From the NCBI GenBank assembly GCA_038087875.1, contig CM075989.1, positions 25,174,001 through 25,238,000 of the forward strand: a DNA stretch of 64,000 nucleotides, written 5' to 3'. Below are positions 8,501 to 59,934 of this stretch, piece after piece; position 1 is the stretch's first letter; each line of letters opens with the position of its first letter. A model generated the notes under the pieces. It did not search any database. It was not told where the DNA came from and saw nothing but the letters and a program-made list of their open reading frames with translations. Source of the stretch: Malacoraja senta. Its lineage: Eukaryota. The translations under genes and the position numbers were made by a program.

Positions 8501-9010
8501 ATTGTCCATCGATATCCTGACCAATTATCCAGCATTACAATGAGTTTGCACTTTCAGCCCTTTGAGCCAAAGCATAAACCAGGGTAAGACATGCCTTGGA
8601 CATGCCAGTCTGAAGAAGGGTCCCGACGCAAAACATCACCCATCCATTGTCTCCAGAGATGCTGCCTGACTCCAGCACTTTGTGCCTATCTCAGGCTCCT
8701 TACCATGCATTGATAAATGGAGACACAAGGAACTGGATACTAGAATCTTCAGCAAAACTCAACGTGCTGGAGAAACTCCACAGGTCAGGCAACATCGGTG
8801 TAGGAAATGGAGAGATACATTTTGGGTTGGGATCCTTCTTCAGACAGTCTGAAATCTAAAGCAAGGTCCTTACCTGAAACGCTGTCTGTCCCTGTCCTCC
8901 AGAGATGGTGCCTGACCCGCTGAGTTTCTCCAGAACTCTGTGTATGTGTTAATGTTTGCAGCATTACTGCCAGTACTCTCTCCCCAAACTACACCTTGTC
9001 TTCCCAACAG

Positions 9011-14631: not shown

Positions 14632-14662
14632 CTGAAGAAGGGTCCCGACTCGAAACGTCACC
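14632..14662 (+). ncRNA. Minimal hammerhead-like core, identical copy at 20555-20585
   Basis: CTGAAGA A GGGT CCCG ACTC GAAA CG TC/ACC. The 5' strand of stem I is truncated. Confidence 0.4.
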
Positions 14663-15863
14663 TACCCATGTTCTCCACAGATGCTGCCTGACCCGCTGAG
14701 TTACTCCAGCACTCTGTGAAACGTCACCTATCCATGTTCTCCACAGATGCTGCCTGACCCGCTGAGTTACCCCAGCACTCTGTGATTTGGAGAAAATCGC
14801 CTCTGTACTGGTTGACGTTTGTAAAGAGCAGCGTACGGAGTTCTCATGAACAGAAACCCAGGGACGGCCTATACAGGGCTTACGGGGTTTCAATGGAATA
14901 TTAACTTGATAACGTCTTTATCCAAGAACACCGAGATTCACTAGTATGTCAGTGCAGACAAGAACTTGTAAAGTAAAAAAAGAAAATGCCAAAGGAATCA
15001 AATGCTGTGCCAATGGGAAGTTGTCCACTGTGAGTGCTACTTACAAAAACATCCTGATCCAGCAATAATGTCAGAGTTCCCTTCATGTAATTTCAACAAG
15101 TGCTTGGTTTGAAATCTAATTCTTTGTCTCAAACCTACAGCAGACAGCTCCAAGGTACGAACAGTGAGTTTGTTTCCACATCAGGTTTCAGGGGCAGTGG
15201 TCCTGAATTTATCTGTGACCAGTGGCAGTATTAGTCAGGACTGAGATATGTATAACTGGTGTGAAGGAATTAATCTTTTAAGCTTGTGGTTATGCATGAA
15301 GAGCTTTGATAAGATTAATTTTGAAGATCTGGCGTGTTTATTGATCTTGACGATTGAAAGAGGGGGAGGAGGCTGAGGGCAATGCCAACTGGAGATGACA
15401 GAATATTAAGAATGAGGTGGAGGTAACTGGAGGCGAGGGGGAGGTGGCACAAGTTAACCCTTCACACTGATAGACTTTAACTAGTTATTGTCTCCTTACC
15501 GACACTGGACTAATTATGTCAATAACTGGGTGCTGCTTTACAGGATTATGTTAATGCTGTCCCATCTAATCACCATGAGGACAGGAAGGCTCAGCCAACT
15601 CTGGGAGGTGGAAAGTCATTAATCTGAAACAATAACTCTGTTTCTCTCTCCATTGATGCTGCCTGACTCTCTAAATGTTTAATAAGTTTCTGTTTTTATT
15701 ATTCTGTGCCTCAATGCAAAGGTATTTTCATGGGATAGTATTGGAGCCATTGACACAATAGAAGGGGCTGAGCTGCCTGTCCCTGTCTACCAGTGTTGCC
15801 TCCATTGGAAATGGTTCTGCAGTCATTACACTAAACCTCAGATTCAAAGCGAGTGCTACATTA

Positions 15864-16245
15864 GGCTGGCGCAGCAGGCAGAACTGCTGTCTCACTGCAT
15901 CAGAGACACGGGTTTGATCCTGACTACAGGTGCTATCTGTGTGGTGTTTGCACGTTCTCCATGTGACCGCTATGGTTTCCTCTGGGTGCTCCAGTTTCCT
16001 CCCACATGCCAAAGACGTGCAGGTTTGTAGGTTAATTGTGTTCTGTAAGTTGTCCCGAGTGTGTAGGGAATGGAAGTGAAAGTGGAATAATGTAGACTTA
16101 GTGTGGTTGACATGAGCTAGTGGGCTGAAGGGCCTGGCTGAAGAAGGGTCTCGACCCGAAACATCACCCATTCCTTCTCTCCAGTGATGCTGCTTGTCCC
16201 ACTGAGTTACTCCAGCGTTTTGTGTCTGTTCCTTCGGCCTGTTTC
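15864..16245 (+). mobile_element. V-SINE with a Penelope-derived repeat (16137-16235) inserted in its tail
   Basis: SINE head and V-domain. ggcctg occurs on both sides of the inserted repeat. Confidence 0.75.
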
Positions 16246-17910: not shown

Positions 17911-20200
17911 GATACCTGTGATCAATCAAGAGCTTGTACATGTGTAAGTTGTCCCCCTTTAGAGCCTCTGGCTGCGACTGAGTAAACGTACACGGGTTTG
18001 TCACTGTTCAACACCTGCATTATGCTTATTGCACCAACAACATTACCAAAACAACCAAGTTATTATAACATTAGAGTCCTAGAGACACACCATTCAGAAA
18101 CAGGCCCTTCGGCCCACCACTTCAAAACTAACAATCAAGTGCTCTCCATACCAAGCGGGTCAGGCAGTATCTCTGGAGAAAAACAATGGGTGACGTTTCG
18201 GGTCGGGACCCTTCTTCAAACTTCACCAACAGCAGTTCTGTGTTTCCACCCATCTATGCCAGAGCCATTTGCCAGGACTTGATCTGATTCTTTGTGTTAA
18301 TCAAATGCTCATCTCGATGCTGGTTAAATGTTGTGAGAGTCCCTGCCTCCACCATCCGCTCACGCTGTGCTTCTAGATTCCAACTGCCTCTGGGTGTAAA
18401 ATCCTCAAACATTCTTTGTTCCACGCTGATGTCTGGAGGTTGGCTGTTGGATGTTGAAACAATGGTGGCAGGACTAAAACAATCTGCTGACTATAAATCA
18501 CATTAGCACGTTCTGAAAGGCAATACGTAAATGCAAGCCTTTCTCCACTTTGTTGATCAGTCTACCGTGCTTGGCTGATATTGACCACACTTCATTATTG
18601 ATCTAGTTCCTCTGGTCACTGGGAGATTTCTCTGGACACAGTGGAAGTGCATTTTTCCATTCTCTTGTTGCTTCTGAAGCATGAGAGGCCACTTGGGTTT
18701 CTGTGCCACAAAACCTTACTCCACTATTACCGACATGAGGGCTGCCATATTGTCCCACCACGCAGGTCCACGTATCCTTGGCAACCAGCAGGAAGTATGT
18801 TGGATAACATTAATGACCATGCCGCCTCCCTCAGTGATATGGGCAAGGAAGGCAGGAGCAGCGAGGGAGAGAGAATGGGCAAGGAAGGAGAGGAGCAGTT
18901 AATGGGAGAGAATGGGTGAGGAAGGCAGGAGCAGTGAGATTGTTCAAACCCCAGGGCTGCCAGAATGCGCAGAGACCGAGTGTTTATGTATCAGAGTTGC
19001 TTCAAACCGTAATGTGGTAATGTCCCCACTGTCTCACTGAAGCTTTGCTCTACCCTGCACTGAGCAACTTGGCATGGAGCCACTGTCACAGATACCTTGG
19101 CTGCTGTACTCCTCTAACACTGCAGTTTCCCAAGGGTGTAGGATATCATGATTTGTACACATGGGCTCTTTCAGTCTGAATCAGGGCAAGCCTGAGAAAG
19201 AGGAAAGGACAATAGTTGATGCAGATAGTGGTAGTGTCACTTTGGATGGCCACCATTAGTGTAGGAGATACTGGGAAACTGGATCACCGTCTGTTCAACA
19301 AAGATGAAAGATTTATGGATGTTTGATAGAGAAACCCATTTTCCTATTTGATCTTGGAGGATAAAACCAGTTAACATGATAAGCATCAGATGTTATATTG
19401 AGCAGTAAATCAAAACAAGAGCATTTTGTGAGCAGTGTTTTGAAGTCTAGAAGTAATGATTCTATTACCACGCCCAACCTGCCCACACCGACTAACGTGC
19501 TCCATCTACACTTGTCCCACCTGCGTGCATTTGGCCCACATCCCTCTAAACCTATCCTATCCATGTACCTGTCCAATTGTAGTACCTGCCTCAACTATCC
19601 CCTCCAGCTGCTCGTTCCATACACCCACCACCGTTTGTGTAAAAAAAGTTAACCCTCGAGTTACTATTAAATCTTTCCCCCCTCACCCTAAACCTCTGTC
19701 CTCTCATTCTCGATCCCCCAACTCTGTGCATTTACCCAATCTATTCCCCTTATAATTTTGTACACCTCTATATGACCCCATGACTTTATTCAGTTCTGTT
19801 CCAATAATGCATCACCATGTGGCCAAGAGGCAAGATCGCAACAATCTTCTTACTTGAGGTAAACATTGGCAAAGTAGGAATTGTATTACAAAATTGGCAG
19901 ATGGTGACCAACGCCACCGAGAGAAAGTTGAACCACTCGTGGGGTGCCGTCTCATTCAGGGGTCGCAGGTTATCTGGGAAAAAGAAGACACAAAATGATG
20001 AAGCAACTCAGTGGGTCATGCAGCATCTCTGGAGAACAAGGTTCTGACCCGAAACGTCACCTATCCACATTCTCCAGAGATGCTGCCTGACCCACTGAGT
20101 TACTCCAGCACTCTGTGAAACGTCACCTATCCATGTTCTCCACAGATGCTGCCTGACCCGCTGAGTTACTCCAGCACTCTGTGAAACGTCACCTATCCAC

Positions 20201-20681
20201 AATGAATGGTTTCTGTTCAATAATATGGGGCGAGTTGATTCTGATTATAGTTTCCAATTCCAAATTCTATTTAATTAGGTTTTTGTGAAACTTGGTTTTG
20301 TGGGTGAAGATTTGGATGGGCTTGTAAAGATTAGTTTAGTTTAGAGATACAGCATGGAAATAGGCCCTTCGGCCCACAGATTCCGCACTGACCTGCGATC
20401 ACCCATTATGCGACCTGCAAAAAATCTATTACATTAATATCAATAACAAATATTTTATAATGCATTAAAGAATGGTAGCCAGGGACAATTCATATCACTG
20501 TGCAGTATACAAGACAGTATTGGTGTAGGATTGGGATAACCAAAGTAGACACATCTGAAGAAGGGTCCCGACTCGAAACGTCACCTACCCATGTTCTCCA
20601 CAGATGCTGCCTGACCCACTGAGTTACTCCAGCACTCTGTGAAACGTCACCTATCCATGTTCTCCACAGATGCTGCCTGAC
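20201..20681 (+). repeat. 481-bp direct duplicate of 14278-14758
   Basis: Read-through comparison found one mismatch. Offset is 5923 bp. Confidence 0.9.
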
Positions 20682-20819
20682 TCCAACACTTTGTGTCTTT
20701 TTATTTTGTAAACCAGCATTTGCAGTTCCTTGTATCTACTGGTGAATTGGGCCTATTTTCAGGGCTAACTGATTAATGGTCCAATCTATTCTAAATCCAC
20801 TCCAATTTGAACTTATCAG

Positions 20820-29165: not shown

Positions 29166-29350
29166 TGGGCTTGGCTGTGGACTGCGCCTCACAAGGGGCT
29201 TTCTTCAACCAGGGCCAGTGCTGCACGGCGGCAGCTCGCATCTTTGTGGAGGAGCCGGTGTACAAGGAGTTTGTGCAACGCAGTGTGGACAGGGTGAAGA
29301 GGAGAGTGGTTGGCAATCCATTCGACCCAAAAACTGAACAAGGACCACAG
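29166..29350 (+). CDS. ALDH1A3: ALDH1A3 coding exon 9 ([62 protein letters not shown])
   Basis: cccctcag acceptor, CAG|gtaaga donor, 185 nt. Contains the catalytic Cys motif FFNQGQCCT. Confidence 0.95.
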
Positions 29351-29416
29351 GTAAGAAAGAGGACGTTACCTGGAGCAGCCGCCAGCGTAGAGAGTGGGGT
29401 TGATGTAGAGTAAAGC

Positions 29417-29622
29417 AGGGCTTGTAGTAACACGGGGCTTGTAGAGTAACAAGGGGCTTGTAGAGTAACACGGGGCTTGTAGAGTAACACGGGGCTTGTA
29501 GAGTAACACGGGGCTTGTAGAGTAACACGGGGCTTGTAGAGTAACACGGGGCTTGTAGAGTAACACGGGGCTTGTAGAGTAACAAGGGGCTTGTAGAGTG
29601 ACACGGGGCTTGTCGAGTGACA
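29417..29622. repeat. 19-bp minisatellite (ggggcttgtagagtaacac), about 10 copies
   Basis: Directly visible in the sequence. Confidence 0.95.
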
Positions 29623-30930
29623 CAGTACTAACGCAAAACTGTGATGGTGAAAGACCTCATGGAGTGGGGGGGGGGGATTATCTTGGTTGGTGCGTATAGG
29701 TGAGACTAATCTGTGCAGTGCAGTAGCTTGGTTCATCCCAGTAGTACAAAGTGAATGATCCCAGAGGTGAGGGAGTAATCAAGAAGAGGATGGATTATCC
29801 CATGAGAGAATGGCTTAACATCAGCGGTGGATACATTATTCTGGGAGAGGGTGGGATATAGGTGAGAGGGGACAGAGGAAGGGGAAAGGGAGGAATGGGT
29901 GTGCACGCAGGTGCGGTACAGGGAAGGGGGGCGTGGGTTGAGGGGGGGGGGAGAAGGGGGGCTGGGGGGTGTTTGTAGATTAATTACCTAAACCAGGTTG
30001 TAGGTTAGTTTCTAACACAGGGGTAAATCTTTAAATTGTCTCACTCTGAGATTTTCTATCACTCTGACCATAATGTGGAATGTCCAGGCCAGGACTGCAC
30101 GGTCACTCTATGGTCAGTGTAAACGGCTGTGATGTGTAACGGGCAGCTTATCCCATTGTACACCATGGTCCTGGGGCACGAGAGGTGCCCTGTTGTGTAG
30201 GTAGAGGGGTGTTTCAGCAACATTCCAGCTGATTGACTCTCATTACATGTAGCTGAAACTGGTAGCAGATAGATAAATATCCCTAAATCAGGTTGACTTG
30301 GATTGAATTGATTGAAAAGTACAGCCTGGAAAGAGGCCCTTTGGCCCACTGAGTCCATGCCGACCTTGATCACCTGTTCACACCAGCTCCTCATCCTGTA
30401 GCAATTTAAACTACAAAAACCGCGTGCCTCAGGGATGTGAAAGTAAACCGGAGCACCCAGCGGAAACCCATCTGGTCATGGGGAGAACATGCAAACTCCA
30501 CACAGACAACACCCGAGGTCAGGATCAAACCCAGGTCTCTGGTGCTCTACCCACTGCGCCACTGTGCTGCCCAGATACAATAAACTCAGTGCCTTCACAA
30601 GTTTAATTAAATAGAGAAAAAATTACATTCTTGTTTACGTTCAAACAGGATTAGATTAAACTATTCCATGTGATATTCCGTGACCATCAATGAACATAAT
30701 TTCTAAAGTTAATTAGACAGATATATGGACAGGAAGGGTTTGAGGGATCTGGGCAAATTGCAGGCAAATGGGACTAGCCCTGAATGCCAACTTGGTCGGC
30801 ATGGACAAGTTGGGCCGAAGGGCCTGTTTCCATGCTGTACAACTTTGTGACTTTATAAAGCACTGTTTACACCCGTAACGCCGGTGGTCTCACACCTCTT
30901 CCCCACCTCTATTTCTCTCCACCCACACAG

Positions 30931-31095
30931 ATCGACCAAGACCAGTTTGACAAAATCCTGGAGCTGATCGAGAGTGGCAAGAGTGAAGGAGCGCGGCTGG
31001 AATCTGGCGGCGGTGCCTACGGGGACGAGGGCCACTACATTCAGCCCACCATCTTCTCCGAGGTGACGGACTCCATGCGCATCGCTAAGGAGGAG
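30931..31095 (+). CDS. ALDH1A3: ALDH1A3 coding exon 10 ([55 protein letters not shown])
   Basis: cacacag acceptor, GAG|gtatgt donor, 165 nt. Confidence 0.95.
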
Positions 31096-31184
31096 GTATG
31101 TATGTCCACGGCAACCAGACTTGTCAATGAGAACCTTACATCCACCAGTACACGTACGTAACCAGTATCTGTCCTGTGCTGCAG

Positions 31185-31342
31185 ATCTTTGGGCCAGTCC
31201 AAGTGATAATGAAGTTTAAGAGCATGGAGGAGGTGATCAGAAGAGCCAACAGCAGTGAGTTTGGGCTGACTGCAGGAGTGTTCACCACCAGCATCGACCG
31301 AGCAATGGCCGTGGCCAAGGCCCTGCAGTCTGGAACCGTCTG
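31185..31342 (+). CDS. ALDH1A3: ALDH1A3 coding exon 11 ([53 protein letters not shown])
   Basis: ctgcag acceptor after an 89-nt intron, TG|gtaaac donor, 158 nt. Completes the EEIFGPV motif. Confidence 0.95.
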
Positions 31343-31582
31343 GTAAACCTCAACAGCATGGACACAGGCCCTTCGGCCCACCGAGTCTGTGTCGACCATC
31401 AATCACCCGTTCGCACTAGTTCTATCTTATACCATTTTCCCATCCACTCCCTACACACTAGGGAAAACGCTCTCATCTATCGATTACCCTTCTTAATCAG
31501 TCCCTCGCTGTCAAGAAAGATTGGCTTCGAGAGTCATAGAGTGATACAGCTTGGAAACAACTTGCCCATGTCATCCAACAAG

Positions 31583-36015: not shown

Positions 36016-36603
36016 AGGCTGATGCCCATACACACCTGTGTTCACTAGGCTGATGCCCATACACACCTGTGTTCACTAGGCTGATGCCCATACACACCTG
36101 TGTTCACTAGGCTGATGCCCATACACACCTGTATTCACTACTTAGGCTGATGCCCATACACACCTGTGTTCACTAGGCTGGTGCCTGTACACACCTGTAT
36201 TCACTAGGCTGATGCCCATACACACCTGTATTCACTAGGCTGATGCCCATACACACCTGTATTCACTAGGCTGATGCCCATACACACCTGTGTTCACTAG
36301 GCTGATGCCCATACACACCTGTATTCACTATTTAGGCTGATGCCCATACACACCTGTGTTCACTAGGCTGATGCCCATACACACATGTGTTCACTAGGCT
36401 GATGCCCATACACACCTGTGTTCACTAGGCTGATGCCTGTACACACCTGTATTCACTAGGCTGATGCCCATACACACCTGTGTTCACTAGGCTGATGCCC
36501 ATACACACCTGTGTTCACTAGGCTGATGCCTGTACACACCTGTGTTCACTAGGCTGATGCCTGTACACACCTGTATTCACTAGGCTGATGCCTGTACACA
36601 CCT
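36016..36603. repeat. 31-bp minisatellite (aggctgatgcccatacacacctgtgttcact), about 19 copies
   Basis: Directly visible. Ends 36 nt before the last ALDH1A3 exon. Confidence 0.95.
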
Positions 36604-36639
36604 GGTGGGCACTGATGTTTATTGTACTGTTCACTGCAG

Positions 36640-37945: not shown

Positions 37946-39410
37946 CTTAAAAATATCGATTGAATAGAAATGTGGAATCAAGGAAGAAGGGAAAAATCAT
38001 TCAATGCAACAAAGATTATTCCTGGCGAGCTGCGGGTACTTTAGCCAACCATGGAACATAACTAGGCTGTTTTGTACATGTTTTGTCTGAAGAAGGGTTT
38101 CGGCCCAAAACGTTGCCTGTTTCCTTCGCTCCATAGATGCTGCCTCACCCGCTGAGTTTCTCCAGCACTTTTGTCTACCTTCGATTTTCCAGCATCTGCA
38201 GTTCCTTCTTAAACAAATGTTTTGTACATAGGTTGTGTCTTCAGCAGAACAGATTAAGGAGACGCTAGCTCCAGATCTTTAATCAGGCAAAAGAAACTGT
38301 TCGTAAGTGTAACACAATTATGAGTTTAAAAGCCTAAAGGCACAGTATTGAGTAACGTTGGATATTTGGCACACCATTACACTTGTCGACAGATGTTTTG
38401 ATATTCTGAATATTCATTTCTAACTCATTAGTGAATAAAAGTTGTAGTGAGAACAATGGCTGCTTCAGAAAACAGAGGCAACATTCTTCCAGAGGTCAAA
38501 GATTTAAGGGGGAGGTTGTTGAGACATTACTATACCAAAATTTAAAAGACATTTGGACAGGCACATGGATAGGAAAGGTTTAGAGGGCTATGGGCCAAAT
38601 GCATGTAGATGGGGCATGTTGGTCGGCATGGGCAAGTTGGAACGAAGTGCCTGTTTCTGTGCTGTGCGACTATGATTCTATGCTGAGGAGTGATTTGGTG
38701 AAAATAAATGAAAGAACAGCTTAAAGGTAGTTACATGAGAAGTTGGAAGGTGTTCAAGCAAGTGAGTAATTCAAAAGTGCTATGTTCCTAATAGAAGAAA
38801 AGGGGAAGTGGCAAAATTAGACCCTATGAGGAAATATTTGGTTGCACAAACCAAATAGAGAAGTTTATGACAAATACTGAAAGTTCAGCATTGCAGAAAG
38901 TGCAAGATGAAACGCAAAAGGAAATTAGGAAGGAGCTGCATGGAAAGAGATTGGTCAGAAAAATCAAAGAAAAGCTTTAACTCATCTGTAAAGATGAGAT
39001 ATGTTATCAAAGAATGTGTCGCTTAAAGTAGCATCTGGTATTGAAAGATGGTTTCATCAATACGTGACATCACATAACACACAAACAAGAAGCTTGTGTT
39101 AAACATGTTTAAGAAGGAACATGTCTATTCAGTCTGATGAAGGGTCTCGACCCAAAACGTCACCTATTTCCTCAGCTGCCTCACCCGCTGAGTTTCTCCA
39201 GCATTTTTGTCCACCTTGTGTTAGACGGGTCAGTTTACAGCTCTGGCACTATGCGCAGTGATGGCCACCACAATACAGGAAGGGTTGGTGGAACTAGTAA
39301 CGGTCCAGAGGAGGTGGGCAGGGATGTTGCCAGGCCTCATGAATGATGTCTCTGTGGAGAAACCCTAAGGATCCAGCTGCTGTCTCAGGAACAAAGGAGA
39401 GTAGTGGAAG

Positions 39411-44744: not shown

Positions 44745-46571
44745 TCCACACACTATTGTTTTTTAAATGCCAGGTTACAAAGATTACAAAATACCTAATG
44801 GAAAGATGAGGCAACATTCCTCGCTTGTACATTGAGATGCATTTGTACAGTGTGGGAGGTGAAAGACAGAGAGTTTAGGGGGGGAGTGAATTAAAATAAC
44901 AAGATCAGGTGGTGGTTCTGGACTTGAGGAGGTGCATAGTAAAACAGATGAGGCAGCGCAGTGCGAGAGATACCAATGGTTTCAGCTGCAGCAGTGTTTG
45001 GAGATCTGAGTGACCAGTGATGCAATCTTACTCTGGGATCAGGGAGGGACTGCAGGAGGAAAGCTGCTGCTGATGATTAAAGAAACAGTTGGACAGGTAC
45101 ATGGATAGGACATGTTTGGAGAGATATGGACCAACGCGGGCAGGTTGGACTAGTGTAGCTGGAACATGTTGGCCGGTGTGGGCAAGTTGGGCCTAAGGGC
45201 CTGTTTCCACATGTGTCAGTCTATGACTCTATGGTAAGCACAGGAAAGTCACTGTTCCACAGAGAAGGACGCAGTGCTGGAATAACTCAGTGGGTCAAGC
45301 AGATCTCTGGACAATATGGATAGGTGACAATTCGGGTCGGGACCCTTCAGACTGATTGCAGGAGGAGCACGAAAGAGAGCTGGAAGAGAGGAGGGGGCAG
45401 GACAAAACATGGCCATTGTTTCCCAAAGTATTTCCTGCTGCCCTGCAATCAGTCTGAAGAAGGGTCCCGACCCAAAACATCACCAATCCATGTTCTCCAC
45501 AGATGCTGCCTGACCCGCTGAGTTACTCCAGCACTCTGTGAAACATCACCTATCCACGTTCTCCACAGATGCTGCCTGACCCGCTGAGTTACTCCAGCAC
45601 TCTGTGAAACATCACCTATCCACGTTCTCCACAGATGCTGCCTGACCCGCTGAGTTACTCCAGCACTTTGTGCCTTTCTAAGGTGAACCGGCATCTGCAG
45701 TTCCTTGCTATTACACTATTACACAGAGCATCAGTTCCTTTGGGAGGCTGAGGTGGGTCTGAAGGGTGTGTCTGCTGTGAATTTTCAGCATTTATCACCT
45801 TTCACATTCCCCAACTTGCTGTGTTTTGCCTCGTGTCGGGGTTTAATGTCCCTGTTGGGGTTCTGCTGTGTGCTCCATGTTTTGTCTTTTACAATGAGTG
45901 ACAACATCACTGCAGGAAGAGGGAGCCAGGTCCTGCCATCTCTCTGTAGGACAGATCAGTGTATTCCCTGCCCCACTCTCTCTCTCTGCTCCTCCAAACT
46001 ATACTCCACCAACTGCTTACCTAACTCCCTCTGGAAAGCCCTCACTTTCACCCCCCCCCCTCTCCCCATAGCAGTGAGTTCCAGATCGTAACTTCCTTTC
46101 CCTTTTTACAAAGCATCTTCTCACTCCGCCTCTGTACTTTGCCATTCCCTTTCACAATAAGTTATTTCTATTTACTCTATAAATCTGCACAATGTTGTCC
46201 ACTCTATCGAATCTCATCACCACTGGAAGGAGAGTATCTCTAACTCCTGCAGTCTAACCTTGCTCTCGTTCCCGGAACCACTCTAGTGAATATTTCCCGC
46301 ACCCTCTTCAGGGCCTGTAATTAGTGTGGAGAGTAGGATGCATTACTTCACTCCCGGCCTACTTGGCTTTATAAAACATTTACAAGGCTGAAGGTTATTT
46401 GGTCCATTGCTTCTGCTGATCAAGAAACATCAATTTATTTTTAAATAACCTGCAAAACTAAGTAGCATTTGTTTTTTTAGCAGAGAAGATTATCGGAATA
46501 ACACAGAGTTGATGATGAACTGAGGAGCCACTGGTTTAACTTGCGAGATTTGTGGAGAAGCCACCATCAAG

Positions 46572-48887: not shown

Positions 48888-49764
48888 GTCCATGATAACG
48901 TCCATGCCAACATCCATACCAACGTCCATGATAACGTCCATGATAACGTCCATGATAACGTCCATACCAACGTCCATGATAACGTCCATACCAACGTCCA
49001 TGATAACGTCCATGATAACGTCCATGCCAACATCCATGATAACGTCCATACCAACATCCATACCAACGTCCATGATAACGTCCATACCAACGTCCATGCC
49101 AACATCCATACCAACGTCCATGATAACGTCCATACCAACGTCCATGCCAACATCCATACCAACGTCCATGATAACGTCCATACCAACGTCCATGATAACG
49201 TCCATGATAACGTCCATGCCAACATCCATACCAACGTCCATGATAACGTCCATACCAACGTCCATGCCAACATCCATACCAACATCCATACCAACGTCCA
49301 TGATAACGTCCATACCAACGTCCATGATAACGTCCATGATAACGTCCATGCCAACATCCATACCAACGTCCATGATAACGTCCATACCAACGTCCATGAT
49401 AACGTCCATACCAACGTCCATGCCAACATCCATACCAACGTCCATGATAACGTCCATACCAACGTCCATGATAACGTCCATGCCAACATCCATACCAACG
49501 TCCATGATAACGTCCATACCAACGTCCATGCCAACATCCATACCAACGTCCATGCCAACGTCCATGATAACGTCCATGATAACGTCCATGCCAACGTCCA
49601 TGATAACGTCCATGATAACGTCCATACCAACGTCCATGCCAACGTCCATGATAACATCCATACCAACGTCCATGATAACGTCCATGCCAACATCCATACC
49701 AACGTCCATGATAACGTCCATGCCAACATCCATACCAACGTCCATGCCAATGTCCATGATAACG
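48888..49764. repeat. 12-bp minisatellite with variant units (tccatgataacg / tccataccaacg / tccatgccaaca), about 73 units
   Basis: Directly visible. It explains the three long low-complexity ORFs here. Confidence 0.96.
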
Positions 49765-51324
49765 CCCATACTAACTAGGTGGCAGTCTGGTCTGGTCCCT
49801 TTTGCCTGGGTTTGGCCATAATCTCGCTCCACCCATCCTAATGTGAGGCTACGTGTGATAACTGAGAGGTTATCCACTAGAGGAGATGACCTCACCATGA
49901 AGAGGGGTCCCAGTCTGGTCTGTCCCTTTCCTGCACTGATGTTGCCTGATGACCCGCTGATGTTCCTGCAGCCGGTGTCATTCTATATCTCATATGTTCT
50001 GCTGCTGGAGAGGAGGTGACTCCCGTTTATCCACAGAATGCTGTATTATGAGCATTATCCATTCCTGAGACCATACAAGATGCAGTGTTGTACGTGATCA
50101 GTAGTAAACAGGTCATGGAATGGGCATAAGGAATAGTGAAATGTTGTGAGGAATGATTAGAAATGATATATAACTTATGGAAGGTAGAGAGAGGGACAGT
50201 GCCAGGATGTCAACATTACATTTGAGGATGGTGAGCGTGATCGTGTGAGCGGCGTTGAGAATGGTGTGTGTTTCCGTGACATCACCGCAGCCTGTACCGT
50301 GCGATGTTTATCTGTACACTGCCTGTTCATGCAGAAAAACAGAGCATGAAATTATAAAGGGAGCAGAGCCCAGCCTAAGCTGGTCTAACTAGATTATTGG
50401 AATCTACAGTTCGGGCCAAACCATTCCCATTTATATAATTATGTCTCAAGGTGCGCCATCACCAGCAAACCTGCTTTAGAGTCCAGTCTTGGCCATCTTG
50501 CAGGAAATCTGCAGTTGACTGCACAAATCTAGCACCCACACATGGCAATGCAGCCACACAACATGGGAAATAGGGCAGAAAGTGTTGGAGTAACTCAGCG
50601 GGTCAGGCAGCATCTCTGGAGAACATGGATAGGTGATGTTTCAGGTCAGGACTGATCTTCAAACTCTAGCAGTCTGATGAAGGGTCCCAATCTAAAATAT
50701 TGCCTATCCATGTTCTCCAGAGATGCTGCCTGACCCACTGAGTTACTCCAGCACTTTGTGGTCTATGCAAGATTCCAGCATCTGCAGTTCCTTGTGTGTA
50801 ATGGTCATAGAGAAATGAGCATCCATTCTGTGTGACCTGGCCTCTGTACAACTCTACTATAAACTGTGTGTCTGACCCCATCTGTCGCATTAACACTTTC
50901 CTCAAACTATAATGGCAGTGCTCCGTAAATCACCTCCATGTGATGGAAATGAAATGGATGAACACGTTGGGATCAACGTACTATCTAAATGGCCTGTTGA
51001 TCTCCTTATGTTAGAACGTAGAATGATTACAATAGACAATAGGTGCAGGAGTAGGCCATTCGGCTCTTCGAGCCAGTACCTACACACCTGTGGCCTCGGG
51101 TTGCTGATGATGGAAACAGTTTCCCTTTACTTGCTCAAGTACTTCATCTTCCACTCCCATTCGAGTTCCATGTCGCTGCGAATTAGGGGAAAGCAGGGAA
51201 ATCTTGGAACGTATTCTTGGTAAAACTGGCACAATTGGATCGAATGACATTTGGAAAACAGTAGGTCGACAAAAATGCTGGAGAAACTCAGAGGGTGAGG
51301 CAGCATCTATGAAGCGAAGGAATA

Positions 51325-51358
51325 GATGACGTTTCGGGTCGAACCCCTTCTTCAGACT
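51325..51358 (-). ncRNA. Minimal hammerhead-like motif in a Penelope-derived repeat
   Basis: Minus strand reads AGT CTGAAGA A GGG GTTCGA CCC GAAA CG TC/ATC. Core intact, stem I weak. Confidence 0.45.
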
Positions 51359-52296
51359 GAAATGGTCTTTTCCAACACTAAGAATAAATATGACTAGACT
51401 TTGAGGAGGAAAGCTATGACTAAAGTTAGAATTAGTCTACAAAATACTTCAAAACAACTTTTCAGTCAGAAACAACGTTCTCATGGAAATCCCAGGCAGA
51501 AAATCCTATCTCTGAACTTCATGTATTTTATCAATTATTGTGCGTCTTTTAAAAAAGTCTATTTGAGTTTGTTAGTCAATGATCAGTATTGAAAGGGGAA
51601 GTTGTAATGAGGAAGTGACAGCCAAGTGTGATCTGGTGCAAAAGAACTGTGTGTGTGAGAGAGAGGCTTCCACTTTGAATGGCCAGGCTGGCTTGTCCAT
51701 CTGGGATGTGGGCAGTAGCTGACCGGTCTGCGGCCAGTGTTCCTGGGCAGGTTGATCACAGCCCTGGACTTCCACCTGCCGTCCAGTGCGGTTAGGAAGG
51801 TGTTGCAGAGTTTGTCACTGAGTGACAGTACAGGCGTGATGCTGGGGACAGGTGCACATGTCCCACCCTGAATGAAATGCAAATAACTGCAGTCGTACGA
51901 AAACTGAAATAATAACAGAAAAGTATGCCGGAAATACTCAGCAGCTCAGAGAGTAGCTTTGTCCACGACCCCCACAGGAGCTCCCTGGTGGTCCCCTGCA
52001 GAGGACTCCAGTGGCTCAGGCCATGATCCCTGACCCCGGGCCTCATGATCCCGGGCCTCATGACCCCTGACCCTGGGCCCCCCCTGCCCCCACCCCTCCT
52101 TGTTCTTGCTCTGCCCTGGACTCTGGAATCGCTCTGTATTAGGAAAGCTTTCAACAGACGCATTGTCCAGCCTTCCCTGAGCTGGACAATGGCAGTGTCA
52201 GCTCATCTGCTCACACATGCTTCAGAACCAATCCCAGCTTCCTGTTGCTGCTTGCTTCACTCCTTGAACCTGCATGATTACTGTCTGCTGTGACAG

Positions 52297-52849: not shown

Positions 52850-53859
52850 ACATAGAAACATAGAAAATAGGTGCAGGAGTAGGCCATTCGGCCCTTCGAG
52901 CCTGCACCGCCATTCAATATGATCATGGCTGATCATCCAACTCAGTATCCCGTACCTGCCTTCTCTCCATACCCCCTGATCCCTTTAGCCACAAGGGCCA
53001 CATCTAACTCCCTCTTAAATATAGCCAATGAATTGGCCTCAACTACCCTCTGTGGCAGAGAGTTCCAGAGATTCACCACTCTCTGTGTGAAAAATGTTTT
53101 TCTCATCTCGGTCCTAAAGGATTTCCCCTTTATCCTTAAACTGTGACCCCTTGTCCTGGACTTCCCCAACATCGGGAACAATCTTCCTGAATCTAGCCTG
53201 TCCAACCCCTTAAGAATTTTGTAAGTTTCTATAAGATCCCCCCTCAATCTTCTAAATTCTAGCGAGTACAAGCCGAGTCTATCCAGTCTTTCTTCATATG
53301 AAAGTCCTGACATCCCAGGAATCAGTCTGGTGAACCTTCTCTGTACTCCCTCTCTGGCAAGAATGTCTTTCCTCAGATTTGGAGACCAAAACTGTACGCA
53401 ATACTCCAGGTGTGGTCTCACCAAGACCCTGTACAACTGCAGTAGAACCTCCCAGCTCCTATACGCAAATCCTTTTGCTATGAATGCTAACATACCATTC
53501 GCTTTCTTCACTGCCTGCTGCACCTGCATGCCTACTTTCAATAACTGGTGTACCATGACACCCAGGTCTCGCTGCATCTCCCCTTTTCCTAATCGGCCAC
53601 CATTTAGATAATAGTCTACTTTCCTGTTTTTGCCACCAAAGTGGATAACCTCACATTTATCCACATTATACTGCATCTGCCATGCATTTGCCCACTCACC
53701 CAACCTATCCAAGTCACCTTGCAGCCTCCTAGCATCCTCCTCACAGCTAACACTGCCCCCCAGCTTCGTGTCATCCGCAAACTTGGAGATGTTGCATTCA
53801 ATTCCCTCATCCAGATCATGAATATATATTGTAAATAGCTGGGGTCCCAGCACTGAGCC
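52850..53859 (-). mobile_element. CR1/HER1-like LINE 3' fragment, same subfamily as 26823-27750
   Basis: ORF GSVLGPQLFTIYI...KFADDTK... nearly identical to the 26.8-kb copy, with a tttctatgtttctatg tail. Confidence 0.93.
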
Positions 53860-54276
53860 AACATCAGAGACCACAGTACTCCTTTGGCACTGCACAGCAC
53901 ACTGCAGCCCACCTTCACTACCACACACCAGTGTATGTCGTGTCAACCTGCTCCAGTCCGTCGCTGAGCCCAGAAGCAGAGCCCTCTGACCCTGAGGCTC
54001 AGGGCAAGTATCTGAGTCTGGGCTGATGTGAAGACAGAGATGGTGAAATAATGAAAACAAGACTCACATGCGATCATCCACTTGAATGATGTGATGGTGT
54101 CATTCTATATTTTTGATTTGATGACATGCTTTGGCGAAATGAGGGGGGGAAGATTATTGGTGCTCAGGGAATAACCAGTCAAACACTCTCCAAACAGAGA
54201 TATCCAGCTCAGCTTATCCAGAGGTAAAGCACAAGGTGCTGGAGTAACTCTACGGGCCAGGCAGCATCTCTGAGGG

Positions 54277-54312
54277 GAATGACGTTTCAGGTCGGGACCC
54301 TTCTTCAGACCC
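54277..54312 (-). ncRNA. Minimal type-I hammerhead-ribozyme-like motif in a Penelope-derived repeat (best-paired copy)
   Basis: Minus strand reads GGGT CTGAAGA A GGGT CCCG ACCT GAAA CG TC/ATTC. This gives the conserved CUGANGA and GAAA core, stem II, palindromic ACGU and a weak 4-bp stem I with two G-U pairs. Confidence 0.55.
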
Positions 54313-56662
54313 TGGTCTAGGTGTGTTGTTCATTGTCTCTCAGATTCTGGGACAGTCTGACAATATCCAGGTGCCAGCTCGTGTGCTGCAGTCTGTCTCT
54401 GATGGTAATTGTAATCTCTGTATCAATTTCCAAAGCAATTGATTCTGCAGAGGGTTGTGATGGGTGTGGATGCTAGAGGTTGCCTGAGGGAAGATTGATT
54501 TACTGCAGTGTTGCTGCTCCACCCAGTGCCCTTCACTGTCCACAGCCACAGACCCAGAGATGGGACACTAGCGCTGGGAAAACACCAACATCTACAGACA
54601 AAGCATCCTTGTGGTGAGCCAGGGGCTGGGACTCAGCGAGTGGCGTGAGGGGGAAGCTCTGACTTTATCCGATCTCCAGCGTCATGCTGAGAATCCTACC
54701 GGAATACTTGGGAAAGATCGCCATGGATATTGTAGACTTTGGCTGGTAATCTGCATTGTTAATGGGGATGTAATGGGGATGTACTGAATCACTGCTGTGA
54801 CAAGGTCAGTCTTCTTTACAGAAGCCTTAATAGTCTCAGTAAGAGAACACAAATATAATCAGAGACACGTTGAAGTAGAACAAGAATTGTCTTGACATAA
54901 TGACAGAAATCTGAATGGAATCTATTATTCTGAGAGCTTGCTCTTTAGCACCATTTTGTTTACTGTTTGTTTAATGCTACTTTCATTTTATTTTGCCACC
55001 ATTGGCAGTCTGAATTCTGAACTGTTCTGGGGTTTGCCCTGAATTGTATAAATATGCGCCCGTTATTAGGGACTGAGGAATGGTGATGTGGGAGTGAGTG
55101 TCATAGTCGTGCAAGTGTTGTACAGCAGGCTCTCTGTGGCATTGGGTGAATGGATGAATGATTAATGGGAAGTATTGTTGGCTGTGCTGATGGAGCAGTG
55201 CCATGCTCAGCTCAAAGATTCTGTGCCTCCAGAAGGAACAATTCCAGCAAGCGCCCAGCGTCAGACCACACTTGCATGGAAATAAACCCGTCTGAAACAT
55301 AACATATACTCAGAAGGGTTTAGCTGAGGTACGTGTCCTAAATATGGAACCAGTCTACTGTTTAATCTCATTCTCAAATTTACAATCAGTGCAGCGATTT
55401 GCTAACAGTTACAGTAACGAAGATAAAGGAAACCACGACAAGGTAGTTTTGTACTAAAAATAAAAAACACTACAGTTGCTGACAAATCTGAAATGACAGA
55501 CAAATGCTGGGAAGACTTGTTTCAGAAGGAAAATCCTTTGTCCAAGCTGTCACCTCTCTCCCTGTCTATAGATGCTGCCAATCCAATGGTTTTACTCGCG
55601 TAGACTCTGTCTGTCTGTGTCTCTCTGTGATTAACCCAACCTCCAGCCCACCAACCACCAGCAAGAAATATAATTGAGTTAATGGTTATGATTCATTGCT
55701 GTAAACACTGTGATTAATAGTCACAGTGCAGAATGTAACTGGAACCATCGGGGGGGAGATTGGGAGGAGTTGTGCCGGGCTGACGAGGGGGGGGGGAGGG
55801 TTGGACAGGGGTGAGAAGGTGATGTTTGGGATGTTCTGTTTGTGTTTGATTTCTGCGTGCTTCTGTTGAAGACATTGTGTATGTTCTTTGCCCTTACGGT
55901 CAGGGTGAGAGTGACCATTGTTTCAGTGAGGAAGAATTGAAGGTGACTAGTTTCCTATTTCCTGTAGATTTCCCCATCGCTGTTATTGGGAGTGAGGAGC
56001 AGGTTTATGGTGAAGGAGGTGGAGAAATACCCAGTTTGGCACCTGTCTGCATCAGGGTTAGGTCTATGGAGGGCCCATTGCCTAGGATCAGGCCTTTCAA
56101 CTCACTTGGTAGCAGACTTAGACTGAGGACATATAAAGAGATTTTACATATGGTGATGGTGTCTCTGAGGAACCTTCGTCCACATGGGGGAGGTGGATGA
56201 GATGTGAATTCCACCAAGACTTGGAGCTTCATTTATATCATTTGGACAGGAATATGGATAAGAAAGGTTTAGAGGGATGTCGGCCAAATGCAGGCAGGTG
56301 GATCTAGTGTAGATGGGGCACCTTGGTCGGCATGGGCAAAGTGGGCCAAACGGCCTGTTTCCGTGCTGTACCACATGATTGCCCTGTGCACCAGTTGGAC
56401 CAATGGTTGCAGGCTGCGGGATGGCCCTGTGCACCAGGTGGCGTGAAACTGCTGTCAGAGCGTGGAGAATGTGGGGACAATATCTGGAGGTCACTGCCAC
56501 CGCACTGCGACCAATCGTGCTAGAATCCCATGCTGGTTTGTTCGTTTGTAGCCCACACCTCGTAACCCTGAGAACCATTGGTTTCTGCATCATTGGGTAA
56601 TTACAGCCACTGCTATCATTCCGTGACTGCCTGAGGGATCTGATCTACGTCTTTGTTTACAG

Positions 56663-56829
56663 GGACTGCCGATGAGACTATGGGAAGCAAGCAGTCGGGG
56701 CTGGAGAGCCCAGCCTTCGAGCAGTGCCCAACCCTACAGAGTGTGCAGGCAGCTTACAGTGCAGGCGAGTTGGAGCAGGCTCAGCATCTCGCCCGCCTGT
56801 TGTGTGAGGAAGCTGGCAGTGAGGAGAAG
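56663..56829 (+). CDS. LRRK1: LRRK1 coding exon (GTADETMGSKQ...VQAAYSAGELEQAQHLARLLCEEAGSEEK)
   Basis: tttacag acceptor, AAG|gtaaga donor, 167 nt, phase 1-0. Resembles human IRAAYRRGD...QLEK. Confidence 0.8.
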
Positions 56830-57896
56830 GTAAGAATGTCACAGCACCTGGCCCCCAGTGGAGAAGGCATGGATATTAATGATGGGCCGAACGGCCTAAT
56901 TCTGCTCCTATTACATCTGAACATGAAGTAGGTGAGTGGAGGATGAAGCATGGACCTGCCGCTGGTAGACTAACAGGTAGCTTCTTCCACTCCTTGCCAC
57001 AGCTTCCCCAAATTTCTCGTCCCCTTCCATGTGCAGTCATGGCTGGGATGAGCTGGGAGATTCCTCCCCTCATCCGGTTTCCTGTTGGAGAGGCTGATGT
57101 GGAAGTTAGTGATGCCTGCAGTCCTGGTCACCACTTTACCGGAAGGCTATGGAGACCCATGGTCAGTCATGACAGAGGGGGGGCTACTACTATGGAGGCT
57201 TTGGAGAGGGTGCAGCAGAGCAGGGCTGTGGAGTCGGTCGGAGTCGGAGTCGCGTGTGTTGGGTATCGACTCCACTGCCCTTGGACGTTGCCTCGATCAC
57301 AGAGATTTAGTTATGAGAGATTTGACAAACTTGCGTTGTTTTCTCCAGAGCATCGGAGGCTAAGAGACAATCTGGTAGAAGTATCTAAAGCTAAGGGAAG
57401 CATAGTCAGTCTTTTACCCAGAGTACAAACGTCAAATGCTAGAGGGGGAAAGTTTAAGGGAGATTAGGTGAGTGATGATGTGAGGGGAAGGTGATGGAGA
57501 TACAGGGAGAATGAATATAATGGGCGTTTGACAGTCAGTGCAAACTCAGTGGGCGAAGGGCCTGTACCTCGCTCTATGACTCTGTGGACAGATAGCTAGA
57601 AGGGGCCTTAGTACAAGGCCGGCTCTTTGGCAGCTGATTAACCAAAGTGTTGGTGTGGTTTTCCAGACAATTAATTAAGACAAAGAGGTTGCACAATTCT
57701 TTGTAAACTTATTGCTCCATGTGTGAGTGCAAAGAGCAGGACTGGAGGAAGGACGTCAAACACAAGGAGTGAGCAGATGGACAGGAAACGGCATGAAGCT
57801 GGAGGTTTCAGACATGAGTCCAGGGGAGAGGCTGTAAATGCACCAGTCTGTGCTGTCTGATGGTGTGGGTCTGACTCTGGCTGCCTCTCTCCTCAG

Positions 57897-58068
57897 TCTC
57901 AGCTCCTGACCTTTGCTGCCTCCCATGGAGATACCGAGACGGTTCGGTTCCTGGTCCAGGACGTGCAGGTGGGATTGTCCAAGGAGCCCAGTCACGAAAA
58001 CCCCGTGATCATTGCCACACATCAGGGTCACGAGGAGGTCGTCAAAGTCTTCTTGGATTCGATGCCAG
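57897..58068 (+). CDS. LRRK1: LRRK1 ankyrin-repeat exon (SQLLTFAASHGDTETVRFLVQDVQVGLSKEPSHENPVIIATHQGHEEVVKVFLDSMP)
   Basis: cctcag acceptor, G|gtaaga donor, 172 nt. Ankyrin pattern aligns with human QLLSIPAAYGDLEMVRYLL. Confidence 0.9.
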
Positions 58069-58273
58069 GTAAGAAGTTTCATATTGTGTCATTATTAGAC
58101 CGACAAGAGCAGGAATGGAAACCCTGGCCTGTGTATATTTAACGCAGCCCTCAGTATCACTAACGCAGCCCTGTGTATCACTAACACCGGCCTCTATCAC
58201 CTGCTGAACATGGTGGAACATTCGATTCTCTATGATCCATTCCCTCTCACCTTGTTCTATGATCCAATCTCTC

Positions 58274-58375
58274 TGACCGGACCCTGTCTCTGACAGCTCC
58301 CTGTATCTGACCGGTCTCTGTATCTGACCGGTCTCTGTCTCTGACCGGTCTCTGTCTCTGACCGGTCTCTGTCTC
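58274..58375. repeat. Short minisatellite (ctgaccggtctctgt[ac]t)
   Basis: Directly visible in the sequence. Confidence 0.85.
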
Positions 58376-58442
58376 TGCACCAGGCCAGCTGAAGGGTTTG
58401 TCACGTACCGTTCTCCTAAAGCATCCTTGGGCAAATCCTAAC

Positions 58443-58735
58443 AGCACGGTGGCGTATCGGTAGAGTTGCTGCCTCACAGCGCCAGAGACCCAGGTTCGAT
58501 CCTGACGGCCGGTACTGTCTGTGGGGAATTTGTGCGTTCTACCCGTGACTGCGTGGGTTTTCTCCAGGTGCTCCGGTTTCCGGTTTCCTCCCACATCCCA
58601 AAGATGTGCAGGTTTGGAGGTTAATTGGCTTCTGTAAATTGGCCCTAGTGTGTAGGATAAAACTAGTGTGTGGGTGATTGTTGGTCAGCACAGACTCAAT
58701 GGGCCGAAGGGCCTGTTTACAGCCTGTATCTTGAA
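58443..58735 (+). mobile_element. tRNA-derived V-SINE (HE1-like)
   Basis: Box A TGGCGTATCGG, box B GGTTCGATCC, V-domain gtgggttttctccaggtgctccggtttcc and a CR1-like gggccgaagggcctg tail. Confidence 0.85.
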
Positions 58736-59333
58736 AGTAATCTAAGCTGATAGTCCTCGGTGGTACTTTAGCAGAGGCATGGGTTGTGGCCACAGGTGCT
58801 GGTTGTGGAGAGGCAGGGACAAGCCTGGTCTGGGGAGGTCCGGGCAGGTCCAGCACTCAAGGGGACATTGACCATTTCATCTCAAACGTTGTCTCCTAAC
58901 CTCGTGTGGCACGTAAGCCTTGACTGCACACAGGAATGTTCTCCCCAACATGGAGAGGTTTCAAGAGGTTTATAGATGGGCACATGGATATGGATCACAT
59001 GCGGACAGAGGTCAGTTTATCTTGCCATCATGTTCGGCACAGACACTGTTCCTGTGCTACTCTGCTCCATGTTCCAGTAGTTTGTAAACTGCTGTAGTAG
59101 CAGGAACTCATCACACCGGCCCGTTGAAACATAACGTAGGACTGATTCCAGGATGGGAGAGGGACTGGAGTGGACGTTATTGTGTCTGCATTGTGTTCCC
59201 TAACTATATCACAGGCATGTTTGTTTCAGCTGCACCGTGGACTTTATCACGGATATTAACATGTTCATTGTCACGGACTTTATCATGCCTGCATCTTTGT
59301 ACTCTCTAACTGCATTGGTATGTGTTGTTCCAG

Positions 59334-59507
59334 GTGCATGCATGGACCTGCTGAGCTGCATGTTGGCAGCAGCCTGCCGGCAAGGTCACATGTCACTGGT
59401 GAAGCTGCTGGTGCTGGAGTACAAGGCAGAGGTGGACAGCTGTGGGATGAGGACCCAGAACCATCCTGTCATCATGGGGCAGCCTCTGTACGCAGCGATG
59501 CAGGCAG
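59334..59507 (+). CDS. LRRK1: LRRK1 ankyrin-repeat exon (ACMDLLSCMLAAACRQGHMSLVKLLVLEYKAEVDSCGMRTQNHPVIMGQPLYAAMQA)
   Basis: ttccag acceptor, G|gtatgt donor, 174 nt. Matches human LACQRGHLGVVKLLVL...PLYAAIKS. Confidence 0.92.
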
Positions 59508-59934
59508 GTATGTGGCCTGCCCCGTCTGTGTTGTCTATGTGCCTATGTCATGAGCAAGGGTGTTCCTGACCGGTCCCACACCATACTTGTGGGGACCACA
59601 ATGTACTCCACTTGATCTTGGCATCAACATTTAATTCAGGTTTCCAGCAGCTCCATTGTTTTATCTCAATAGTTTTTATTTTTCAGTGAAATATCTTCCT
59701 CCAGAACTCTGTCTCTCGCTGCGTGTTTCCTGCTGTAGTTCTGTCCCTTTGTTCAGGGGTGTTTTTGCTCTTCATCTTCCCGTTGTGGGAACCATGAGCA
59801 ATAGGCACCGTGCTGGAGGTACTCAGCAGGTCAGGCAGCATCTGTGGAGGGAATGGGCAGATGGCATTTCAGGTGGGGAATCATCTGGTTTCTGGACCGT
59901 TGTGGTTTTACTGGAATGTTTATTTTTGTTGCAG

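What the first reader, a model, noticed from the sequence alone, without database searches (positions are those of the whole stretch)
54277..54312. Abundant Penelope-derived repeat carries a minimal, dimer-type hammerhead ribozyme motif
Seen: more than 15 copies on both strands, e.g. + at 14632, 16138, 20555, 38087, 39134, 42917, 45454, 61558 and - at 11570, 18190, 25842, 51325, 54277. They share CTGA[AT]GA-A-GGGT-N4-ACCC-GAAA-CG-TC. Established: CUGANGA and GAAA flanking a hairpin, followed by a UH site, is the hammerhead core. An extra A after A9 occurs in a natural viroid hammerhead. Penelope-like retroelements are known to carry minimal type-I hammerheads with a palindromic stem III that cleave as dimers. 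Here stem III is just the palindrome ACGT, which could pair only between two copies. Inference: this is the ribozyme of the PLE pseudo-LTR, spread through host introns. Many degenerate copies differ at the CpGs (CCGAAA>CCAAAA, ACGT>ACAT), which fits methylation decay of an intact ancestral core. Caveat: stem I is only 2-4 bp in these copies, so activity is uncertain.
Basis: partly seen in the sequence, partly recalled or inferred. Interest (0 to 1): 0.72.

Follow-up and report, generated by a model that had tools for sequence, protein, structure and literature searches.

The report
Penelope end-repeat hammerhead, mostly decayed copies
The motif is real and sits in the end repeats of a very abundant Penelope-type jumping gene of a shark or ray, a kind of tiny self-cutting RNA motif described in 2014; it likely cuts only in the parent element's RNA with protein help, and the scattered copies, this one included, are likely inert leftovers.

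Summary
Observation confirmed: 15 copies within 3 mismatches in the window, none in shuffles; 39,209 exact matches to two variants in the genome. The motif fits the published minimal type I hammerhead consensus and lies in both terminal repeats (pLTRs) of a Neptune-like Penelope element with RT and GIY-YIG domains (25 of 30 RT loci carry it downstream). It is a new member of a known kind. Stem I is only 2 bp, there is no double-sided covariation, and cleavage could not be tested. Genomic copies look unselected: the CpG at catalytic G12 decays as fast as control CpGs. The focal copy has lost G10.1-C11.1 and lies antisense to both neighbouring host genes. Most copies are ~100-nt pieces starting just 5' of the motif, almost none at the cut site. 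The one new point: a young 66-nt tandem derivative (14,459 exact junctions, 1.3% divergence) keeps only the GAAACGUC half and is spreading without the catalytic 5' half. That suggests the ribozyme is not needed in cis for mobility. A circular-RNA origin for these arrays is possible but unsupported.

The parts
54281..54308 (-). Minimal type I hammerhead motif: CUGAAGA, extra A, stem II GGGU-CCCG-ACCU (C11.1 decayed to U), GAAACGUC; predicted cut after the C at 54281
54223..54310 (-). Whole solo pLTR piece (motif plus tail), starting about 2 nt before the core, with a short deletion after the cut site
   Evidence: profile hit, E 1.5e-20
14632..14785 (+). Motif-bearing head followed by one added 66-nt unit that carries only GAAACGUC plus tail
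20029..20201 (+). 66-nt tandem array on a damaged head, with an inverted arm upstream
20555..20700 (+). Second head plus 66-nt unit; upstream flank identical to the 14632 copy
45454..45683 (+). Head with decayed G12 and G16.2, followed by 66-nt units
51260..51359 (-). Solo copy with intact core
50570..50766 (.). Head-to-head inverted pair of pLTR pieces, a typical Penelope junction
8751..8949 (.). Head-to-head inverted pair of pLTR pieces
16136..16229 (+). Solo copy, G16.2 decayed (one of about 20 further solo pieces listed)
38084..38185 (+). Solo copy of the young subfamily (stem II GGGU-UUCG-GCCC, cut site GUU), G12 decayed
59315..59512 (+). Context: LRRK1-like exon on the strand opposite to the focal copy
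   Evidence: E 1.6e-10 to LRRK1 chains
29171..31355 (+). Context: two aldehyde dehydrogenase exons (29171-29404, 31179-31355)

Best explanation
The motif is the minimal type I hammerhead in the terminal repeat of an abundant Penelope-like retroelement of a cartilaginous fish; it likely cuts after GUC or GUU only in the parent element's RNA, as a pair and with the element's protein as chaperone, and the dispersed copies are likely inert by-products. Shown: the position in both pLTRs, the RT plus GIY-YIG parent, the match to the published consensus, the copy numbers and the decay pattern. Inferred: two motifs pair through the ACGU palindrome to make stem III; protein help is needed because stem I is 2 bp and the active fold is not the most stable one; the RT starts inside the tail and usually stops at or near the 5' edge of the motif, so most insertions are about 100 nt, and fold-back there gives the head-to-head pairs; the template is uncut RNA; after insertion the copies decay without selection.
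For: Parent: L061 has the motif at 2137 and 6067 around RT (Pfam RVT_1, E 5.8e-06) and GIY-YIG (E 4.2e-04) coding stretches (both scores are below Pfam's cut-off, and the GIY-YIG hit on L006 is above it). Motif downstream in 25 of 30 RT loci (three pairs of these loci look like duplicates) and 29 of 38 endonuclease ends, 17 of 24 in the evenly spaced sample. Best named protein homologues are from rays and sharks. Consensus match to CUGANGAH G..C GAAAN palindrome NU H (PMC4209133 supplement). Five subfamily majorities differ at 0 of 11 catalytic columns, against 8 of 19 and 7 of 40 columns downstream; changes inside the motif fall in loop II, at position 17 (C/U) and at one stem II partner (U-A/U-G). 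Four lineages with different 3' UTRs (89-254 nt) share the same core. Contigs of four other organisms show listed changes inside the motif only at 11.4, 17 and 1.1 (40 of 44 rows shown). Neutral decay: the CpG holding G12 is changed in 74 of 165 copies, control CpGs in 58 of 166 and 62 of 162; the core is intact in 77 of 166. Uncut template: only 7 of 377 profile hits start at model columns 32-36, around the cut site; 88 of 144 solo copies extend 6 nt or less upstream of C3. Precedent: the Anolis Poseidon hammerhead cuts only with its protein and is not needed for insertion in vitro (PMC11167929, main text read).
Against: No pair changes on both sides: 0 of 8 pairs in 28 distinct rows, and the shuffles do as well. 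Rfam finds no hammerhead in the window or in a young pLTR. Stem I is 2 bp in 25 of 34 descriptor hits, the lower limit of the published examples. Monomers fold no better than shuffles (z -0.2 to +1.3 for five of six sequences). A natural young monomer prefers a misfolded duplex (-24.6 kcal/mol) to a one-site dimeric hammerhead (-9.7) (non-canonical core contacts are not modelled). The conserved block may also serve as promoter or protein-binding site, and the tail is about as conserved between lineages as the core (0.79 against 0.78). Against strict neutrality: non-CpG core positions differ less than tail positions (67 of 1645 against 496 of 7174); matched by base this holds for A only (29 of 828 against 101 of 1148), not for T, G or C. 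The focal copy's own subfamily (loop CCCG) was not seen downstream of an endonuclease end; its link is by homology to the others.
Confidence: 0.82

Rival explanations
1. The motif descends from a hammerhead but is now kept in this lineage as a promoter or protein-binding element (TCAGT initiator-like site plus hairpin), and it no longer cuts.
For: Stem I is 2 bp and the active fold is disfavoured. No double-sided covariation. Copy 5' ends cluster at the TCAGT that all four lineages keep; an Inr-like TCACT is reported in a rotifer pLTR (PMC3846280, passages). No copies pile up at the cut site. A derivative lacking the 5' half spreads well.
Against: All 11 catalytic positions, the extra nucleotide, the palindrome and both short stems are kept while tolerated positions vary. 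Equally minimal PLE motifs cut weakly as dimers or with protein (PMC4209133, PMC11167929). There is no cap-G signature at the presumed start: G at -4 in 6 of 50 copies.
Confidence: 0.12
2. The dispersed intact copies (about 110,000 by extrapolation) act on host transcripts, pairing in cis or in trans and cutting pre-mRNAs.
For: 34 strict-descriptor hits in 599,400 bases, none in 5 shuffles. Many copies lie in or near genes. Head-plus-unit arrays could close stem III in cis.
Against: The G12 CpG is not protected. No strand bias in the window, 16 plus and 13 minus. The focal copy is antisense to both genes. Intermolecular pairing would rest on about 6 bp.
Confidence: 0.05
3. The resemblance to a hammerhead is chance in an abundant repeat.
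For: One family amplifies any chance match; no Rfam hit; no covariation.
Against: The motif sits exactly where PLE hammerheads are known, in both pLTRs, and has features that are not forced by the core: the extra nucleotide after A9, G10.1-C11.1 and palindromic 15.2/16.2.
Confidence: 0.01

Closest known systems
Minimal type I hammerheads (min-HHR) of metazoan PLE pLTRs (Cervera and De la Pena 2014, PMC4209133; parts 1-2 of 4 of the text and parts 1-2 of 3 of the supplement read)
   Same: Core, extra nucleotide after A9, G10.1-C11.1, palindromic C15.2-G16.2 with no loop, GUC/GUU site, place in both pLTRs, mostly solo dispersed copies, opposite-strand pairs.
   Different: Stems I (2 bp) and II (4 bp) are at the short end. 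Copy number is far higher (39,209 exact matches against 4,000-9,000 motifs in coelacanth and Xenopus). No cartilaginous fish is named in Table S1 or in the Figure S3 rows that I read.
Poseidon element of Anolis, PAc (Frangieh et al. 2024, PMC11167929; main text read)
   Same: pLTR hammerhead followed by a tail. Two preferred 3' ends about 35 nt apart are seen here too (loose ends at L065 6193-6195 and 6228-6229). No sign that cut RNA is the template.
   Different: This element has a C-x4-C-x2-C linker between RT and endonuclease, as described for Neptune and Nematis. Cleavage is untested here.
Neptune-clade EN+ Penelope-like elements (Craig et al. 2021, PMC8557442; passages read)
   Same: RT, Zn-finger-like linker, C-terminal GIY-YIG; pLTRs, optional tail, head-to-head inverted 5' copies.
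   Different: Clade not tested with a tree. Most copies here are ~100-nt pLTR pieces.
Non-LTR retrozymes (Li et al. 2026, bioRxiv 10.64898/2026.07.22.740005, parts 1-3 of 5 read, supplements closed; Cervera and De la Pena 2020, PMC7229834, passages read)
   Same: For the 66-nt arrays: short tandem units derived from a pLTR, non-coding, dispersed and concentrated near chromosome ends.
   Different: Retrozyme units each hold a whole hammerhead; the 66-nt unit lacks CUGANGA and stem II and could not cut itself.

Membership tests
PLE minimal type I hammerhead | CUGANGA and GAAA boxes around stem II, UH site | tested here: met
   intact in the focal copy and in 77 of 166 sampled copies
PLE minimal type I hammerhead | [quoted passage not shown] | tested here: met
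   A in all five subfamily majorities
PLE minimal type I hammerhead | G10.1-C11.1 pair | tested here: met
   C in 136 of 166 copies; the focal copy has U, a CpG decay
PLE minimal type I hammerhead | Palindromic 15.2/16.2, no stem III of its own | tested here: met
   ACGU in all subfamily majorities
PLE minimal type I hammerhead | Stem I closing the motif | tested here: met
   2 bp only (G-C and U-A/U-G); 2-bp stems occur in the published alignment (Culex, D. virilis, Oikopleura)
PLE minimal type I hammerhead | Compensatory changes in the stems | tested here: inconclusive
   0 of 8 pairs change on both sides; only one-sided changes; the family is little diverged
PLE minimal type I hammerhead | Located in both pLTRs of an RT-endonuclease element | tested here: met
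   L061 2137 and 6067; 25 of 30 RT loci
PLE minimal type I hammerhead | Self-cleavage as a dimer or with protein | not testable with these tools
   needs a bench assay; only contigs, no raw RNA reads, were on offer
Rfam hammerhead families | Match to an Rfam hammerhead model | tested here: not met
   no hammerhead hit at E up to 1 in the window or up to 10 in L065 5900-6300
Neptune-clade PLE | [quoted passage not shown] | tested here: met
   linker seen in the L061 translation
Neptune-clade PLE | RT falls in the Neptune group on a tree | not tested
   no named reference sequences at hand
Non-LTR retrozyme (for the 66-nt arrays) | Whole type I hammerhead in each tandem unit | tested here: not met
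   unit runs from GAAACGUC to the tail end and lacks CUGANGA and stem II
Non-LTR retrozyme (for the 66-nt arrays) | Circular RNA intermediate | not testable with these tools
   no raw small-RNA reads available

The most novel reading that the evidence does not exclude
The young 66-nt arrays are a split retrozyme: each unit carries only the substrate half of the hammerhead, is cut out between successive GUC sites by a catalytic half supplied from the array's head or from other pLTR transcripts with the PLE protein's help, is closed into a 66-nt RNA circle, and is copied round by the PLE reverse transcriptase into multimers that often land in older pLTR copies.
Probability: 0.12. Interest if true: 0.7.

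Novelty: new member of a known kind. Interest (0 to 1): 0.3.

Why it matters
The motif itself adds one lineage to a class known since 2014. Its value is as a large natural data set on an open question: what PLE hammerheads do in vivo. Hundreds of thousands of copies show that the copied RNA was almost never cut at the site, and a young derivative that lacks the catalytic half is spreading. Both agree with the in vitro result that cleavage is not needed for insertion. If the 66-nt arrays came from circles cut in trans, they would be a very small mobile RNA circle and a natural trans-acting hammerhead.

Tried and rejected
Rfam scans: no hammerhead hit; the MIR7994 and mir-5856 hits are inverted pairs of this repeat. 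Splicing into the CAG just before the core, as in D. virilis Penelope, to lengthen stem I: no such GT..AG joint among the listed joints (15 of 48 shown; 15 of 281), so no support, but contigs cannot exclude it. A sharp capped start at the A of TCAGT: the boundary is graded over -1 to -5 and G is not enriched at -4 (6 of 50). Copies templated by the 3' cleavage product: no peak at the cut site. For the 66-nt arrays, a young head-plus-units master: only 20 exact head-plus-unit matches against 14,459 unit junctions. Starts of headless arrays do not mark the cut site: they range over unit positions 1-63, and those at 1-11 are partly damaged old heads. Sequencing runs: no RNA holder listed, so nothing is said on expression. 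Other hammerhead families: the descriptor found only this family in 599,400 bases. Lunse et al. 2017 (PMC5785218) is not held; I know it only by its title in reference lists and a summary in PMC6765202 (passages). Searches for a printed description in cartilaginous fish found none; Li et al. 2026 sampled one chondrichthyan and its closed supplements may list this family. Target-site duplications were not analysed.

Full report
Observation. The motif is at 54281-54308 on the minus strand. A profile built from natural copies finds 42 pieces, 29 covering the core. In the 1.94-Gb genome two exact variants have 20,039 and 19,170 matches; reversed controls have 0. In 100 evenly spaced stretches (998,800 bases) the unit has 377 hits covering 31,699 bases, about 3% of the genome and some 730,000 pieces by extrapolation. 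A strict descriptor gives 34 hits in 599,400 bases, all of this family, and 0 in five shuffles.

Parent element. One of the first 30 motif loci (L006) showed RT and GIY-YIG coding sequence ending about 110 nt before the motif. Of the 30 best RT loci, 25 carry the motif downstream in sense; three pairs of these loci look like duplicates. Of 38 endonuclease C-termini, 29 have it within 300 nt, 17 of 24 in the evenly spaced sample. L061 is a full-length, frameshifted copy of about 4 kb with the motif in both pLTRs. It has a C-x4-C-x2-C linker before the endonuclease, described for Neptune and Nematis elements (PMC8557442, passages). The best named homologues come from Mobula, Rhincodon, Hypanus, Stegostoma and Chiloscyllium, so the host is a cartilaginous fish.

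Is it a hammerhead? It has every feature of the consensus in PMC4209133: both boxes, the extra nucleotide, G10.1-C11.1, palindromic C15.2-G16.2 and a GUC or GUU site. Five subfamily majorities agree at 11 of 11 catalytic columns and differ in loop II (2 of 4), position 17, one stem II partner, and 8 of 19 and 7 of 40 downstream columns. Four lineages whose 3' UTRs differ in length and sequence share the core (these copies were picked by the motif, so the core identity is biased upward). In contigs of four other organisms the listed changes inside the motif are at 11.4, 17 and 1.1, all tolerated by the structure. Against: no pair changes on both sides, Rfam is blank, stem I is 2 bp, and the active fold is not the most stable one. 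Published PLE motifs are likewise weak: no cleavage as monomer and low as dimer (PMC4209133), or cleavage only with the element's protein (PMC11167929). I therefore file it as a member by sequence and position, with activity inferred.

The dispersed copies. Of 284 copies picked by the tail alone, 166 had a recognisable stem II and aligned CUGANGA columns; 77 of these have an intact core and 52 also keep the palindrome. The CpG holding G12, the general base (PMC6155905, passages), is changed in 74 of 165 copies; the palindrome CpG in 66 of 164; control CpGs in 58 of 166 and 62 of 162. So insertions are not protected. Non-CpG core positions do differ less than the tail (4.1% against 6.9%), but base-matched this holds only for A; unresolved subfamily variation in the tail or alignment bias could explain it, and I cannot exclude weak selection. 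The focal copy has U at 11.1 and a short deletion after the cut site, and its 4-bp stem I uses flanking bases. It is antisense to the aldehyde dehydrogenase exons and the LRRK1-like exon; whether it lies in a 5' intron or upstream of that gene was not settled.

How the copies were made. Of 284 tail-picked copies, 205 have a core; 61 of these are in head-to-head pairs and 144 are solo. Of the solos, 88 extend 6 nt or less upstream of C3, 32 extend 7-19 nt and 24 extend 20 nt or more. The full-length L061 also starts there, and contigs of other organisms have loose ends at the same place. Only 7 of 377 hits start at columns 32-36, around the cut site. The template was therefore mostly uncut RNA whose copying ends at the 5' edge of the motif. 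A transcription start at the conserved TCAGT (an initiator-like sequence; consensus recalled, and an Inr-like site is reported in a rotifer pLTR) is the likeliest cause, but the boundary is graded and shows no cap-G. Internal starts in the tail and inverted 5' copies are known PLE traits.

The window holds 66-nt tandem units at 14652, 20051 and 45475 that run from GAAACGUC to the tail end and lack CUGAAGA and stem II. The unit junction has 14,459 exact matches in the genome but only 1 relaxed match in the 100 evenly spaced stretches; the listed hits cluster near contig ends. In 78 arrays from stretches chosen for holding them or lying near the window, 138 internal units differ by 1.3% from their majority; arrays have 1-10 junctions, one has 27. 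Thirty-four arrays sit behind a recognisable head, 11 have an inverted arm and 33 scored as headless, some of which are damaged heads by eye. Heads are older and mixed: mean 16.6% mismatch over 20 nt, inflated by a few gapped cases, and only 20 exact head-plus-unit matches exist. Several arrays start at arbitrary unit positions in unrelated DNA. My reading (inferred, about 0.7): the PLE machinery copies a multimeric RNA that keeps the tail, and often inserts it into older pLTR copies, a known PLE habit (PMC6765202, passages). A long array such as the 27-junction one would suffice as a linear template. DNA-level conversion near chromosome ends may contribute. A circle cut out by a catalytic half supplied from outside the unit is not excluded: head plus unit can form a cis hammerhead, 7 kcal/mol above the best fold. 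Nothing here favours it over the linear template.

Comparison and verdict. The class is in print (PMC4209133; reviews PMC7761336 and PMC6765202, passages). My searches found no description in cartilaginous fish, but Li et al. 2026 sampled one such genome and its supplements were closed. Earlier notes of this scan on other genomes reach the same filing; they are unchecked and not independent support. Verdict: real, correctly interpreted, a new member of a known kind; interest 0.3, most of it from the half-hammerhead arrays.

Noticed in passing
window 14652-14785, 20051-20201, 45475-45672; L244 near 5348 (27 junctions): Young 66-nt tandem units carrying only the 3' half of the hammerhead; 14,459 exact junctions in the genome, concentrated near contig ends, often placed inside older pLTR copies.
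   Followed up: partly
L214, L215, L226, L227: At four loci the 66-nt array switches at the same unit position (22-23) into an inverted piece of the young subfamily; in L226 and L227 more units follow. A shared composite template is likely.
   Followed up: no
G000 C1:5164104-5164160 and C1:8231934-8231990: Head-to-head exact copies separated by one base, a near-perfect palindrome centred at the motif's 5' edge; 61 of 205 sampled core copies are in inverted pairs.
   Followed up: partly
window 14590-14790 and 20510-20700: The two copies share an identical upstream flank, which suggests a local duplication rather than two insertions.
   Followed up: no
window 23677-25455 (+), 26729-27664 (+), 52942-54063 (-): LINE reverse-transcriptase frames (Pfam RVT_1, E 1.6e-33 for the first; CR1-like by recall). 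The first begins right behind a pLTR piece.
   Followed up: no
L061 2140-2320; L064 near 2159: The element's reading frame appears to be open from within the pLTR tail into the long ORF, and a pyrimidine tract plus CAG precedes the motif in the 3' pLTR, resembling a 3' splice site; no spliced joint was listed.
   Followed up: partly
window 50611-50727 and 19998-20108: Sub-threshold Rfam microRNA hits (MIR7994, mir-5856) are only inverted pairs of this repeat.
   Followed up: yes
window 29171-31355 and 55400-59512 (+): Aldehyde dehydrogenase exons followed by an LRRK1-like gene; the ALDH1A3-LRRK1 order is recalled from other vertebrates.
   Followed up: partly
window 31575-32441, 36015-36604, 40879-41782, 48883-49775: Several long minisatellites (periods 34, 31, 22, 24/36) in this window near the contig end.
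   Followed up: no
RT matches (e.g. L037-L041): Many RT matches hold a single TGA; CpG decay is the likely cause, and whether the position is shared was not checked.
   Followed up: no
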